64,000 nt of DNA from an uncultured Alphaproteobacteria bacterium. GTDB lineage: Bacteria; Pseudomonadota; Alphaproteobacteria; CAAHEQ01; UBA3637. The stretch spans positions 6,469 to 70,468 of the forward strand of contig CASECF010000039.1 of NCBI GenBank assembly GCA_949286245.1. The letters are read 5' to 3'. The notes beneath the pieces were generated by a model. The model had not been told where the DNA came from. It was given only the letters and a program-made list of their open reading frames with translations, and ran no database searches. Positions 15,743 through 54,627 of the stretch are shown piece after piece; the stretch's first letter is position 1; each line of letters opens with the position of its first letter. The position numbers were made by a program, and so were the translations under genes.

Positions 15743-15970
15743 AGCTCAATTATGAATAGGATATGATCTTTCATCAAAATCAGGAAGGAACGTATATGAG
15801 AGATCAATAAAATTATGTCGGTGTGATCCTGCCTTATGAGAAGAAATACATCACCCTTAAAGCCTAATGAACGCACAATGTCCGCAAATTATACGTGGAG
15901 TAGGCTTAATAGCATAGTAGAGCATATAAATTGTGATGACCTCTTATACACAAATCATAATGAAACCTAA
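15743..15970 (+). repeat. Copy A of a ~230-bp non-coding repeat element (AGCTCAATTATGAATAG...AATCATAATGAA) at the left boundary of the ankyrin array
   Basis: About 80-85 percent identical to 52642-52884 (same orientation) and to the reverse complement of 54404-54627. Confidence 0.65.
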
Positions 15971-16054
15971 ATTTATTTTTTTGTTGTGAGAACAGTTTTA
16001 TTTTTTTTTGTTTTCTTATTTTTAATTTTTGTACCACATTTTATCAAATAAAAG

Positions 16055-16082
16055 TTGACAAATTTTTTGTTTTGTATAAAAT
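16055..16082 (+). promoter_or_regulatory. Sigma70-type promoter (TTGACA-N16-TAAAAT) for the first ankyrin gene
   Basis: AAGTTGACAAATTTTTT motif shared with other array promoters. Confidence 0.5.
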
Positions 16083-16121
16083 ATAACTTATGTATCGTTA
16101 ATTAAAAGGAAAGAAAATATA

Positions 16122-17159
16122 ATGGCGTATTCACAAAACGAATTAATAGAACAAATGTGGCTGGCGATTCAAGAAAATGATTTAAGAGCTTTAAACGAAT
16201 TGATCCATGAAGGTGTAGATTTAGAGGCGCGTGATGAAAAGGGAGTGACGCCACTAATGCTTGCAACAATCTCTGAAAATGATGATATGGTTTCAAGAAT
16301 ATTAAAAGAGGGTGTGGATAAAGATAGCAAAGATTATTTTGGGAATACGGCCTTGATGTATTCTCTTTTGAATAAAAAAAGTAGTATCTTTAAATTATTA
16401 CTTAGGAATAAAGCTGATTTAGAAATTAAAGATGATAGAGGAAATACGGTTTTATCCACAGCTGCCAGCTTAGGAAATGTACGAGCTGTTCAGATGTTGA
16501 TTGGTGAGGGTGCTGATGTCAATACGAAAAATGACCTGAATCAAACACCGTTGATGCGTGCAGCTGACTGTCGGCAGTATGATATTATGAGACGTTTGAT
16601 TGATGCGGGAGCTTTGGTGAATCTGCAAGATAATTTTGGATATTCTTCATTGGCTCATGCCGTGATTGGCTCCAGTAAGGAGTGTGTGGAACTATTGTTG
16701 GATCGTGGTGCAGATGCCTCTCTTAAGGATCACTCCGGTTCAACCCCATTATCGCTTATTGCAGTTTTTGGAGAGTATGATGCTGATGCTATTTGGAAAA
16801 CACCAATGTCAAAGATGAAAGAATTTGGAGAAAAGCATTTAATGTTAGATGCGTTTGTGAAAAAGGGCGTGGATATCAACTCAAAAAATGCTTCCGGCCA
16901 AACGCCGTTGGTCCATTCGATTTCTGTTATGCACAATCCTGCTCTCGCTAAGCTATTTTTAGCCTATGGGGCGGATATGAAGATTCGGGATAAGTATGGG
17001 AAAAATGCTTTGGATTATGCTAAGGAACAAAAAGATCAAAGATTGATATCTCTTTTTATTGAACGAATGCGGTTATCTAAAGAACAATCTTTTGTGAGAA
17101 AAAACAAGATTGAGTCTCGGAACGGAAATATTTTATTCTTTTCAAAAGAAAGAGGATAA
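16122..17159 (+). CDS. Ankyrin-repeat protein (about 8 ANK repeats), lacks the shared C-terminal module
   Basis: Repeated G-x-TPLM-x-A-x3-G / GADxN ANK consensus throughout; RBS ggaaag. Confidence 0.85.
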   Translation: MAYSQNELIEQMWLAIQENDLRALNELIHEGVDLEARDEKGVTPLMLATISENDDMVSRILKEGVDKDSKDYFGNTALMYSLLNKKSSIFKLLLRNKADLEIKDDRGNTVLSTAASLGNVRAVQMLIGEGADVNTKNDLNQTPLMRAADCRQYDIMRRLIDAGALVNLQDNFGYSSLAHAVIGSSKECVELLLDRGADASLKDHSGSTPLSLIAVFGEYDADAIWKTPMSKMKEFGEKHLMLDAFVKKGVDINSKNASGQTPLVHSISVMHNPALAKLFLAYGADMKIRDKYGKNALDYAKEQKDQRLISLFIERMRLSKEQSFVRKNKIESRNGNILFFSKERG

Positions 17160-17493
17160 GATGAAGGAATAAAATGGAGGTGCCGATAAGGATTTATTGG
17201 ATTCTCTATTATATTCAGAGAAGATACAGTATTGAGAGTGGTTTTTCGCTGGTAAATTCTGGAATAAAGCTTGATTATAGAAACAGCTAGAGCGAGTCTG
17301 TTTTGATAAAAAGTGCTAAATTTGGAAAAATAGATATGGTTTAGTCGTTTATTTCTATTAGAGTGAATTTAGACTTGAGGGATTTTAAAGAGAATACACC
17401 ACTCTTTTTATAAAGGTAAAAATTTGGATCGAATTGAGGAGCCAAACTGTTGGATTCTCTGCTCAATTGAGATGATATTAAGGTGCGGGAAAA

Positions 17494-18264
17494 ATGAAAG
17501 TGTTGGATGAACGGTTAATAGAGGCGGTAAAGAGTTCAAATTGTTTTGAAATTGAAAAACTGATAGTTTCCGGAGTTGATCCGAATATGAGGGATTCAGA
17601 AGAGGATTTGACTGCATTAATGCAGGCGGCTCGGTGGAGTTGTACCAAGAGTTTTAAGACCTTAATAAAGGCTGGGGCAGATGTGAATATCCAAAATGAA
17701 AGAGGAGGTTGGACTGCACTGATGCTTGTATCCAGATATGGCTCTTTAGAAATGCTTGAAAGTTTATTGGATGTTGGTGTGGAGAATATAAATGCTAAAA
17801 ATAAAGAGGGATGGACGGCGTTTCATTTGGCAACCATTCGCCTTGCTAATAATGCCGGAGATCTCAAGATGCTTTATGCTTTGGCTGATGCCGGAGCAGA
17901 TCCAACCATTCCACATGAGCAGTATGGAACACTCTTGGAATTAGCTGAAAAAAATAATACACCGGATATCGCTGATATTGTCCGAAAGATAATCCAAAAA
18001 CGGGAAGATCCCGAACATCAATTATATCTATTATCTCAATGGCCGTATAAAAAGTTAGTGAATCCTTCACAAAACAGAGAAATTTTTAAGACATTATTGA
18101 AGTTGGATTGTTTAGCTCGGGTTTTCGAAACGGAAGTCATAGATAATTATGATAAATTAACGGCAGTTTATAAAGAAGTAATGCTTTATGCTCAAGATAA
18201 TCCAAAATTGAAAAGACAGATACAAAACGCATTTATTAAAAAAAGATCTTATCTCGCTAGTTAA
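17494..18264 (+). CDS. Ankyrin-repeat protein with shared C-terminal module
   Basis: ANK repeats; C-terminus YKKLVNPSQNREIFKTLLKLDCLARVFETEVIDNYDKLTAVYKEVMLYAQDNPKLKRQIQNAFIKK. Confidence 0.85.
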   Translation: MKVLDERLIEAVKSSNCFEIEKLIVSGVDPNMRDSEEDLTALMQAARWSCTKSFKTLIKAGADVNIQNERGGWTALMLVSRYGSLEMLESLLDVGVENINAKNKEGWTAFHLATIRLANNAGDLKMLYALADAGADPTIPHEQYGTLLELAEKNNTPDIADIVRKIIQKREDPEHQLYLLSQWPYKKLVNPSQNREIFKTLLKLDCLARVFETEVIDNYDKLTAVYKEVMLYAQDNPKLKRQIQNAFIKKRSYLAS

Positions 18265-52884: not shown

Positions 52885-53179
52885 ATTGCTAAAAGATTTA
52901 GGGGATCTCGGAGAATTTTCTCGAATGTTTGAGTTTAGTTATCTGGATAGTTATGAAAATGTAAAGCTTACTATCAAATAATCATTTAATCTCCTTATTT
53001 TTCAAAAACCTCTTTAAGCAACGTTCAACAGGTATTTATCGATAAACAAAAGTCATTTAGAGAAAAAAGAAATCAATCACGAGAATATTTACCTCTTCAG
53101 TTTCATAAAATAAATACGTCCTCTTAATGTCTGAAAAGAGGCAGGTATAAAAGTAAAGAAATGAGAATGAAGGATAATA

Positions 53180-53207
53180 TTGACAAAATTATGATTTGTG
53201 ATAGACT
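53180..53207 (+). promoter_or_regulatory. Conserved array promoter AATATTGACAAAA-N16-TAGACT
   Basis: Same core; lies between repeat copy B and the last ankyrin gene. Confidence 0.5.
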
Positions 53208-53302
53208 GAGTATTATTAGTGATTTCTAACATAAGAGACTTTTACGCTCTTTCATGCGAGAAAACCGAATTTTTTATTTATTTTAAATCAGAGAGGGAAC
53301 GG

Positions 53303-54346
53303 ATGAATATAGCTCAGCAATTATTTGGTGCGATTGAAGATAGGGATGAAAAAACGGCTTTAGAATTGATTGCACAGATTCCCTCTGATAATTTTAATGC
53401 GTATTTGGGTGAAATTGCTCTTTTAGAGGCCTCTTCTCAAGGTCAAAAAGAGGTTGTGAAGGCTTTACTGGATAGGGGAATTCAGCCGGATGTGCGAGAT
53501 GAGGAGGAGGGATTAACTCCTCTGATGTTTGCCGTAGCTCGGGGTCATATAGATATTGTCGAGCATTTAATTTCTCGTGGAGCGTCTTTGAATTTACAAG
53601 ATAAAGAAGGGCAAACAGCATTAAAGTACGCTGTGAAATTTACTCGTCCTGAAATTGTTGATATACTTTTAGCCGCAAAAAGCGATGTGAACCTTGCAGA
53701 TATTCAAGGAGAAACGCCACTTATGTTGGCCTCTCGAAACGGATACGTGAATTTAGTTCACTCTTTATTAAAAAAGGGAGCAAATATTGATGCTCAAGAT
53801 TGTAAAGGAGAGACGGCTTTAATGAAGGCTGTTGACAGAGATAATTCAGCGATTATTGATATTTTGTTAAAACACAATGCAAATGTTAATATTCGATCAA
53901 AAAAAGGTCAAACAGTTTTAATGAAAATATCCGAGAAAGGATATCTTGAAGTTTCTGAGGCTTTACTGCAACGCGATGCTGATGTTGATCTTCAAGATAG
54001 AAACGGAATGACTGCTTTGATGGGGGCGGCTTTAAAGGGATGTGTCGCCGTTGTAAAAGCATTATTATCTCGGGGCGCTAATCCAAATTTACAGGATAGA
54101 AATGGGATGACAGCTTCTATGTTTGCGGTAAAAGGTGCTTCTTATGGTGCGTTGAAGTACTTATTGGATGCTCATGCTGATAATCGATTGCGAGATAAAA
54201 ATGATTTGACCGTTTGGGATTATGCCTATAAATTGGAAAATCAAGCTCTTATGGATTTACTTCGAAAAGATAGAGAGAAAAAAGAAACTCAAGGGGCTTC
54301 TTCGATTTATGCCAATCGACTTCACTCGATCAAACGAGAACGATAG
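53303..54346 (+). CDS. Ankyrin-repeat protein (about 9 ANK), lacks the C-module; enclosed by inverted copies B and C of the 230-bp repeat
   Basis: ORF track 53219; RBS gagagggaacgg ATG at 53303; ANK consensus throughout. Confidence 0.8.
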   Translation: MNIAQQLFGAIEDRDEKTALELIAQIPSDNFNAYLGEIALLEASSQGQKEVVKALLDRGIQPDVRDEEEGLTPLMFAVARGHIDIVEHLISRGASLNLQDKEGQTALKYAVKFTRPEIVDILLAAKSDVNLADIQGETPLMLASRNGYVNLVHSLLKKGANIDAQDCKGETALMKAVDRDNSAIIDILLKHNANVNIRSKKGQTVLMKISEKGYLEVSEALLQRDADVDLQDRNGMTALMGAALKGCVAVVKALLSRGANPNLQDRNGMTASMFAVKGASYGALKYLLDAHADNRLRDKNDLTVWDYAYKLENQALMDLLRKDREKKETQGASSIYANRLHSIKRER

Positions 54347-54403
54347 TCTTAGAGAAAAACAAACAACCCATTTATAGCCTCCGATAAAGAGAATAAATTT
54401 TAA

Positions 54404-54627
54404 GGATTCATTATGATTTGTGTATGAGAGCTCATCACAATTGATATGTTCTACTGCACTATTAAGTCTGCTTTGAGTATAATTTTCGGAAATTATGCAT
54501 TCATTAAGATTCGGGGTGGTGGATTTCTTCTCATAAGATAGGATCAGACTAGCATAATTTTATTTATCTCTCATATACGTTCATTCTTGATTTTAATGAA
54601 AGACCATACCCTATTCATAATTGAGCT
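54404..54627 (-). repeat. Copy C of the ~230-bp repeat element, inverted relative to A and B
   Basis: Its reverse complement reads GAAAGCTCAATTATGAATAGGGTATGGTCTTTCATTAAAATCAAGAATGAACGTATATGAGAGATAAATAAAATTATGCTAGTCTGATCC... Confidence 0.65.

What the first reader, a model, noticed from the sequence alone, without database searches (positions are those of the whole stretch)
15743..54627. Three copies of a ~230-bp non-coding element bracket the array and enclose its last gene as an inverted pair
Copy A (15743-15970) sits exactly where the housekeeping region ends and the first ankyrin gene begins. Copy B (52642-52884, same orientation) sits after the 28th gene. Copy C (54404-54627, inverted) sits after the 29th and last gene. 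B and C therefore form an inverted-repeat cassette around the gene at 53303-54346. The element has no ORF, starts AGCTCAATTATGAATAG and ends AATCATAATGAA (weak terminal inverted symmetry). It could be a MITE-like mobile remnant, a recombination module that delimits or expands the island, or a conserved regulatory or small-RNA locus. Direct copies A and B could allow excision or deletion of the whole 37-kb array.
Basis: seen in the sequence. Interest (0 to 1): 0.65.

Follow-up and report, generated by a model that had tools for sequence, protein, structure and literature searches.

The report
Miniature transposon (MITE), three copies
The three ~230-base repeats are copies of a small non-coding jumping element (a MITE) that landed at three spots in and beside an ankyrin-gene island of an uncultured gut alphaproteobacterium; this is an ordinary kind of mobile DNA, not a device that builds or delimits the island.

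Summary
There are three copies of a 224-237 nt non-coding element: A 15743-15967 (+), B 52642-52878 (+) and C 54404-54627 (-). They are 83-93% identical, with the same sharp ends in three unrelated contexts. The evidence identifies a MITE-like non-autonomous transposon. It has imperfect 23-nt terminal inverted repeats in register with its ends (14-16/23). It has 8-bp target-site duplications: A TAAATTTA/TAAATTTA, B TAAAAGAT/TAAAAAAT. There is no ORF, no Rfam match and no supported RNA structure. The decisive result concerns copy B, which sits inside an ankyrin gene, not after it. A sister lineage (BRZ_FB and ONAT22-1 assemblies) carries the intact 353-aa orthologue with a single TAAAAAAT at that position. 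This is an exact empty site. C is also absent there, although the island and its last gene are present. So the repeats do not delimit or build the array; B, and probably A, are independent insertions, and C is an insertion or loss without a clear duplication. In six more distant relatives the two flanking genes abut, so the 39-kb array is lineage-specific. No transposase or parent IS was found, and genome-wide copy number is unknown. This is a new member of a known kind, of modest interest.

The parts
15735..15742 (.). Left target-site duplication of copy A (TAAATTTA)
   Evidence: Identical 8-mer abuts both ends of A. The chance of 8/8 at local base composition is about 5e-4. The same flanks occur in strain L085.
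15743..15967 (+). MITE copy A, 225 nt, between the stop of the 266-aa gene (15729) and the ank1 promoter (16055-16082)
   Evidence: Alignment. Terminal inverted repeats match 14/23 in register. A is present at 97% identity in L085 and as a decayed 72% copy in the BRZ_FB contig L087.
15968..15975 (.). Right target-site duplication of copy A (TAAATTTA)
51846..53180 (+). Ankyrin pseudogene interrupted by copy B. It also has two in-frame stops (52230, 52599), a 66-nt insertion (about 52312-52377) and a premature stop at 52979. The 3' limit is approximate.
   Evidence: The reconstructed reading frame is 72% identical over its full length to the intact 353-aa orthologue P0004 of the BRZ_FB and ONAT22-1 assemblies. 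blastx shows the shared C-terminal domain downstream of B.
52634..52641 (.). Left target-site duplication of copy B (TAAAAGAT, one substitution)
   Evidence: The empty site in L094/L095 has a single TAAAAAAT.
52642..52878 (+). MITE copy B, 237 nt (includes a 13-nt internal tandem duplication), inserted in the coding sequence of the ankyrin pseudogene
   Evidence: It is absent from the orthologous gene in L094 and L095. The blastn segments break at window 52641|52879 with an 8-nt overlap in the query. After removing 52642-52886 the alignment is gapless and in frame. Terminal inverted repeats match 15/23.
52879..52886 (.). Right target-site duplication of copy B (TAAAAAAT)
   Evidence: Identical to the single target in the empty site.
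54404..54627 (-). MITE copy C, 224 nt, in the spacer between the convergent genes ank29 (stop 54346) and the 105-aa gene (stop 54686)
   Evidence: Alignment. Terminal inverted repeats match 16/23. C is absent from L094/L095 (no nhmmer hit; the spacer is 160 nt there against 392 nt here, a difference of 232 = 224+8). The flanks match 4/8, so no clear duplication, and the spacer is too diverged to show an exact empty site.

Best explanation
The element is a MITE: a small, non-coding, AT-rich derivative of a DNA transposon that keeps only the terminal inverted repeats. A transposase encoded elsewhere in the genome would bind the ~23-nt ends (5' AGCTCAATTATGAATAG..., 3' ...CAAATCATAATGAAnCC). It would cut or copy the element and join it to a staggered 8-bp cut in an AT-rich target, and repair of that cut leaves the 8-bp direct duplication. 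The three copies are most simply separate insertions. A lies in the spacer after the 266-aa gene. B lies in the coding region of an ankyrin gene, which it splits. C lies in the spacer between the last ankyrin gene and the 105-aa gene. Shown here: discrete common ends, terminal inverted repeats, 8-bp duplications at A and B, an exact empty site for B, absence of C in a sister lineage, lack of coding capacity, and lack of RNA structure. Inferred: mobilisation in trans by a DDE-type transposase, and the family of that enzyme. The position of copies at both edges of the ankyrin island most likely reflects tolerance of insertions in AT-rich, dispensable DNA. It does not indicate a role in moving or bounding the island.
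For: (1) All three copies share both ends while their flanks are unrelated: a housekeeping-side gene, the inside of an ankyrin gene, and a convergent spacer. (2) The 8-mers abutting the ends match 8/8 at A and 7/8 at B. Chance at local composition is about 5e-4 and 7e-3. B's ends were fixed beforehand by homology to A. (3) The terminal 23 nt align as inverted repeats in register with those ends, 14-16/23, with the core ATTATGA at positions 7-13. At most 0.055% of shuffles match as well. (4) Empty site: P0004 is the intact 353-aa orthologue of the interrupted gene. In L094 and L095 the DNA runs through the site with one TAAAAAAT, and the blastn segments overlap by exactly 8 nt. Removing the element plus one duplication restores the frame. 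(5) C is absent in those lineages although ank29 and the 105-aa gene are present. (6) There is no ORF. GC is 30-35% against 37.5% for the window. (7) There is no Rfam match, folding z-scores run from -1.9 to +0.15, and the alignment folds show a covariation penalty. (8) Copy A differs by 28% from the BRZ_FB copy. This is similar to four-fold-site divergence in the adjacent gene (0.35) and suggests no overall constraint. (9) These features match the published definition of bacterial MITEs: 50-600 bp, AT-rich, non-coding, terminal inverted repeats, duplication length like the parent IS, moved in trans (PMC6382973).
Against: No transposase or parent IS with matching ends was found in the window, in 16 kb of extra flank, or in 1.6 Mb of related loci. 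Only three copies are known, all within 39 kb, and the rest of the genome could not be searched. Exact-pattern scans of the genome (first core pattern only), metagenome and viral collections, and BLAST against plasmids and phages, found nothing. C has no recognisable duplication (4/8). The terminal inverted repeats are imperfect. The outer 36 nt of A are better conserved between lineages (3 differences) than the rest, which a purely neutral relic does not predict. It is not certain that A in the window and in BRZ_FB descend from one insertion.
Confidence: 0.85

Rival explanations
1. The copies are the functional ends of a larger mobile or recombining unit. Either A and C are terminal inverted repeats of the whole 39-kb island, or B and C make a composite transposon around the last ankyrin gene, or A and B are direct repeats left by integration of a circle. 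In this reading they delimit, move or expand the array.
For: In six related MAGs the 266-aa and 105-aa genes abut, so everything from A to C is an insertion with A and C exactly at its edges and in inverted orientation. B and C are inverted and 93% identical around one gene with its own promoter. MITE copies can form composite transposons, for example Tn6645 (PMC6382973).
Against: The sister lineage has the island's right end and the ank29 orthologue without B and C. A and B each have their own 8-bp duplication. The outer flanks do not match as a duplication for A...C (3/8) or B...C (2/8), read from the flanks. B lies inside a coding sequence that is continuous in the empty site. The island holds no recombinase or transposase; 30 of 31 plus-strand ORFs are ankyrin proteins. 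No assembly shows an inverted or deleted form.
Confidence: 0.06
2. The element is a conserved regulatory or small-RNA module, for example a 3'-UTR-derived RNA or terminator/insulator. It has been copied downstream of three genes and works as RNA or as a protein-binding site.
For: Each copy starts 13-59 nt after a stop codon and in the same orientation as that ORF. For B that stop is a later nonsense mutation in the interrupted gene. The first ~36 nt are nearly invariant in all copies and between lineages. A 9-10 bp hairpin (GATCTTTCAT/ATGAGAGATC) is kept in most copies.
Against: There is no Rfam match, even at E<=10. Minimum free energies are no better than shuffles (z from -1.9 to +0.15). The consensus structures are weak, with positive covariation terms and many broken pairs. 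No promoter- or terminator-like site is conserved in the element, and site counts do not exceed shuffles. The inner half is deleted or decayed in BRZ_FB while the neighbouring ank1 promoter is conserved. Two of the three sites are empty in a sister lineage.
Confidence: 0.05
3. The copies are by-products of local segmental duplication during growth of the tandem ankyrin array, that is, shared intergenic or 3' UTR DNA and not a mobile unit.
For: The element is known only from this one locus. The array is full of recent internal duplications.
Against: Similarity stops at the same two points in all copies, and the flanking genes are unrelated. One copy is inverted. A and B have 8-bp duplications, and B has an exact empty site inside a coding sequence. 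Unequal crossing-over does not produce these features.
Confidence: 0.02

Closest known systems
Bacterial MITEs in general, e.g. MITEAba12 of Acinetobacter (PMC6382973)
   Same: Small, AT-rich and non-coding, with stops in all frames. It has terminal inverted repeats, a fixed-length target-site duplication and a preference for AT-rich targets. It can disrupt genes, and copies vary between strains.
   Different: MITEAba12 is 113 bp, makes 9-bp duplications and has an identified parent (ISAba12). This element is 224-237 nt, makes 8-bp duplications, has poorer terminal inverted repeats, and has no identified parent or known genome-wide distribution.
IS6-family MITEs (two ISfinder entries of 227 and 336 bp) and IS6-type 8-bp target repeats (PMC7986276)
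   Same: 8-bp direct target repeats, and a MITE of almost the same length (227 bp).
   Different: IS6 ends are described as short, highly conserved and generally perfect 14-bp inverted repeats. Here the ends are imperfect over 23 nt. From my own knowledge, other families (ISL3, IS66, IS256, IS1595) also give 8-bp duplications, so the duplication length alone does not assign a family. Not tested against IS end sequences.
MITE-flanked composite transposons (e.g. Tn6645; PMC6382973)
   Same: Two MITE copies flank passenger DNA (B and C around ank29; A and C around the whole array).
   Different: A composite unit should carry one duplication outside the pair and be present or absent as a unit. Here the outer flanks do not match, A and B each have their own duplication, and the passenger gene is present without B and C in the sister lineage.
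Rickettsia palindromic elements (RPE) of Alphaproteobacteria (my own knowledge, not tested)
   Same: Short repeats of an alphaproteobacterial, host-associated lineage that can lie inside protein-coding genes.
   Different: RPEs are about 100-150 bp and are typically inserted in frame and translated. This element has stops in every frame, truncates the gene, and shows terminal inverted repeats plus an 8-bp duplication.

Membership tests
Bacterial MITE | Small size (about 50-600 bp) and AT-rich | tested here: met
   224-237 nt; GC 30-35% against 37.5% for the window. Definition from PMC6382973.
Bacterial MITE | No transposase or other coding capacity | tested here: met
   Stops in all six frames. 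The longest ORF (44 aa in A) is not conserved in B or C because of an indel.
Bacterial MITE | Terminal inverted repeats | tested here: met
   14/23, 15/23 and 16/23 matches in register with the ends. At most 0.055% of shuffles do as well. The repeats are imperfect.
Bacterial MITE | Target-site duplication of fixed length | tested here: met
   8 bp: A 8/8 and B 7/8. B is confirmed by a single-copy target in the empty site. C is 4/8, so unclear.
Bacterial MITE | Evidence of insertion (filled versus empty site) | tested here: met
   B is absent from the intact orthologous gene in L094/L095, with a gapless junction. C is absent there too.
Bacterial MITE | Multiple dispersed copies in the genome | tested here: inconclusive
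   Three copies within 39 kb and none in the other ~41 kb examined. A 21-specified-base core shared by A, B and C has no exact match in any GTDB representative genome.
Bacterial MITE | Co-resident parent IS with matching ends and duplication length, acting in trans | not testable with these tools
   No transposase in the window or flanks. No paired matching ends in 1.6 Mb of loci. The whole genome and ISfinder were not available.
Composite transposon or island bounded by terminal repeats | One target-site duplication outside the pair of end copies | tested here: not met
   A-left against C-outer 3/8; B-left against C-outer 2/8 (flanks listed). A and B carry their own duplications.
Composite transposon or island bounded by terminal repeats | Unit present or absent as a whole | tested here: not met
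   The ank29 orthologue and the array are present in L094/L095 without B and C.
Structured small RNA or known RNA family | Match to a curated family, or a stable structure supported by covariation | tested here: not met
   No Rfam hit. z-scores from -1.9 to +0.15. Covariation terms +1.1 and +3.6 kcal/mol, which are penalties.
Integron-like cassette array (attC sites) | A recombination site after every cassette, plus an integrase | tested here: not met
   Only three copies for about 30 genes, and no integrase in the island.

The most novel reading that the evidence does not exclude
The MITE is still active and is preferentially retained in the ankyrin effector island. There, pairs of copies serve as portable ends or homology that let a transposase or RecA move, invert or delete individual ankyrin genes (e.g. 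B-ank29-C). This would make the element a driver of turnover of the host-interaction gene repertoire. Alternatively, the unusually conserved outer 36 nt have been co-opted as a 3'-end signal.
Probability: 0.07. Interest if true: 0.5.

Novelty: new member of a known kind. Interest (0 to 1): 0.25.

Why it matters
The result resolves what looked like a structural frame around a 39-kb ankyrin array into ordinary transposon insertions. The array should therefore not be read as a repeat-bounded mobile unit. It adds an undescribed MITE family with an 8-bp target duplication in an uncultured gut alphaproteobacterial lineage. It also gives a clean filled/empty polymorphism, one that inactivates or marks a decaying ankyrin gene, which could serve as a strain marker. 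The repeats explain why short-read assemblies of this locus break inside B and C. The more interesting biology lies in the lineage-specific ankyrin array itself, which is outside this finding.

Tried and rejected
- Rfam at gathering threshold on the whole window, and at E<=10 on 52500-54800: only tRNA-Met and chance-level hits.
- Single-sequence folding of A and C on both strands: not better than shuffles.
- Alignment folding of five copies on both strands: weak, no covariation.
- Six-frame translation: no conserved ORF.
- Promoter and terminator scans: nothing conserved inside the element, and counts not above shuffles.
- Exact-pattern scans found no hits. GAACGTATATGAGAGATNAATA was run on genome contigs, metagenome contigs and viral contigs. 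AGCTCAATTATGAATAGNNTATG was run on metagenome contigs and viral contigs. The first pattern does not match the decayed BRZ_FB copy, which explains the miss in the species representative.
- blastn 'distant' against plasmids and phages: no match.
- nhmmer profiles of 3 and 5 copies against all fetched loci: only the known copies.
- Search for paired TIR-like ends that could mark a parent IS in 1.6 Mb: none.
- Pfam on island and flank ORFs for a transposase or integrase: none.
- Composite-transposon reading: rejected on flanks and on the sister-lineage structure.
- Exact empty site for C: the spacer is too diverged to align.
- The contig end inside A in the Logan assembly is not evidence for extra copies. 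A shares no 31-mer with B or C. The L086 contig end falls at a site that differs between strains, but the cause of the L001 end was not established.
- Considered but not run: a protein-representative search with spurious ORFs of the element. The gene callers of the source assemblies call no ORF in any copy.
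Full report
**Observation.**
The three copies are real. With ends set by their target-site duplications they are A 15743-15967 (+), B 52642-52878 (+) and C 54404-54627 (-). Identity is 83% (A/B), 84% (A/C) and 93% (B/C). B carries a 13-nt internal tandem duplication. The similarity is far above chance: a 17-nt core occurs 3 times against 0.16 expected, a 32-nt terminal pattern 3 times against 0.00, and nhmmer E-values are 1e-76 to 1e-81. 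No further copy, even a weak one, is in the window or in about 16 kb of additional flank recovered from other assemblies. Similarity ends at the same two points in all three copies, while the flanks are unrelated.

**Context.**
The window comes from an uncultured gut alphaproteobacterium. The UvrC gene is 99% identical in protein to MAG BRZ_FB__bin41, and more distant relatives (62-70%) come from roe deer, sheep, yak and human gut MAGs. Between 15.7 and 54.7 kb, 30 of the 31 plus-strand ORFs are ankyrin-repeat proteins, and none is a transposase or integrase. In six of the distant relatives the gene order is uvrC, pbp5, 541-aa gene, 266-aa gene, then the convergent 105-aa gene, Sel1 and pal. 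The 266-aa and 105-aa genes lie only tens of bases apart there. Everything from A to C is therefore an insertion specific to this lineage. A and C sit at its two edges in inverted orientation, which made a 'terminal repeat of the island' reading worth testing.

**What the element is not.**
- It has stops in all frames and no conserved ORF.
- It matches no Rfam family, even at E<=10.
- Minimum free energies of A and C on either strand are no better than shuffles, with z from -1.9 to +0.15.
- Alignment folds of five copies give weak energies with positive covariation terms and many broken pairs.
- It contains no conserved promoter-like or terminator-like site. The strong ank1 promoter (16055-16082, 11/12) and the ank29 promoter (53180-53207) lie outside it.

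**What it is.**
The 8 nt abutting A on each side are identical (TAAATTTA, 15735-42 and 15968-75). At the homologous ends of B the 8-mers are TAAAAGAT (52634-41) and TAAAAAAT (52879-86), a 7/8 match. At the local base composition the chances are about 5e-4 and 7e-3. With those ends, the first 23 nt and the reverse complement of the last 23 nt align in register at 14-16 of 23 positions, with ATTATGA at positions 7-13. At most 0.055% of shuffles reach this. C has the same ends, but its flanks match only 4/8.

**The empty site.**
blastx showed that the DNA just downstream of B encodes the C-terminal domain shared by the array's proteins. The frame upstream of B reads ...RLINPHYNKR, which matches the linker that precedes that domain. 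Joining 52641 to 52887 gives one continuous frame. A search with this reconstruction found P0004, a 353-aa protein that is 72% identical over the whole query and reads straight through the junction (...NPRYNKKLLKDLG...). Its contigs (L094 from BRZ_FB, L095 from ONAT22-1) align to the window as two segments, 52377-52641 and 52879-54293. These segments overlap by exactly 8 nt in the query, and the site there carries a single TAAAAAAT. After removing the element and one duplication the alignment is gapless. B is therefore an insertion with an 8-bp target-site duplication into an ankyrin gene. In the window that gene also carries two nonsense codons, a 66-nt insertion and a premature stop.

**Copies C and A in other lineages.**
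C is also missing in L094/L095. The ank29-to-105-aa spacer is 160 nt there against 392 nt here, a difference of 232 = 224 + 8. The spacer is too diverged to show the exact site. A is present at 97% identity in a second strain (L085). In BRZ_FB (L087) it survives as a decayed copy that is 72% identical and has lost its inner end.

The sister lineage has the island's right end and its last gene without B and C. A and B each carry their own duplication. The outer flanks of A...C and B...C do not match (3/8 and 2/8, from the flanks). The copies did not arrive as ends of the island or of a B-ank29-C cassette, and they do not delimit it mechanistically. Their position at the island's edges most likely reflects insertion into AT-rich, dispensable DNA. 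Recombination between copies is possible in principle, but every assembly that spans the region has the same arrangement. The short-read contig breaks inside B and C are what a 93% inverted repeat would cause.

**Constraint.**
Between the window and BRZ_FB lineages, four-fold-site divergence is 0.11-0.23 in housekeeping genes, 0.35 in the adjacent 266-aa gene and 0.37-0.48 near C's site. Copy A differs by 28% plus indels, which is about neutral. The exception is its outer 36 nt, with 3 differences, and this is not explained. It is also not certain that the two A copies descend from one insertion.

**Mechanism (inferred).**
A transposase encoded elsewhere recognises the ~23-nt ends and inserts the element at a staggered 8-bp cut. 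This fits the published description of bacterial MITEs (PMC6382973). An 8-bp duplication is typical of IS6 (PMC7986276, which also notes IS6-derived MITEs of 227 and 336 bp). From my own knowledge it is also typical of ISL3, IS66, IS256 and IS1595. No family can be assigned, because no parent IS or transposase was found and the rest of the genome could not be searched. Pattern scans of the genome (first pattern only), metagenome and viral collections, and BLAST against plasmids and phages, gave nothing.

**Verdict.**
This is a previously undescribed MITE-like element, a new member of a known kind, with filled/empty polymorphism between lineages. Confidence in this reading is about 0.85, and interest is modest.

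Noticed in passing
window 16122-54346: About 30 same-strand ankyrin-repeat genes form an array. Most end in a shared non-ankyrin C-terminal domain of about 70 aa (..LLKLGSLASVLE..SIDSYEKLKKVY..PY....KKQIQN.F) with no Pfam match. The whole 39-kb array is absent from six related gut alphaproteobacterial MAGs, where the two flanking genes abut (family D17, 26, 30, 48, 49). It could be a lineage-specific effector repertoire with a common targeting or secretion domain.
   Followed up: partly
window 52312-52377: A 66-nt, in-frame, AT-rich insertion lies in the ankyrin pseudogene relative to the intact orthologue in BRZ_FB. No obvious duplication or inverted ends were seen.
   Followed up: no
L087 1282-1343 versus window 15730-15742: BRZ_FB has an extra 49 nt with a hairpin plus T-run (terminator-like) between the stop of the 266-aa gene and element A. 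The window lacks it, so here the element directly follows the gene.
   Followed up: no
window 14929-15729, 53303-55003 versus 5535-13119: Neutral (four-fold-site) divergence between the window and BRZ_FB lineages is 0.35-0.48 at the island edges and 0.11-0.23 in nearby housekeeping genes. This suggests older alleles or recombination around the island.
   Followed up: partly
window 56771-57190: Two independent ENA assemblies end just after tRNA-Met (at about 56887 and 57170). The region holds a terminator-like hairpin after the tRNA and a 24-nt unit, GGGTTTCTCTTTCAAATATAAAAG, repeated twice. The cause of the assembly breaks is unknown.
   Followed up: no
window 17415-18690; 43300-47800: Array content and reading frames differ between lineages and assemblies. 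BRZ_FB lacks the segment with the second ankyrin gene. The ENA scaffold calls different ORFs across the most repetitive genes.
   Followed up: no
window 16122-54346 (one of 34 ORFs scanned): One ORF in the island hits Pfam DUF1125 (PF06563) at E = 3.4e-18. Which ORF was not determined, and it may be an antisense ORF.
   Followed up: no
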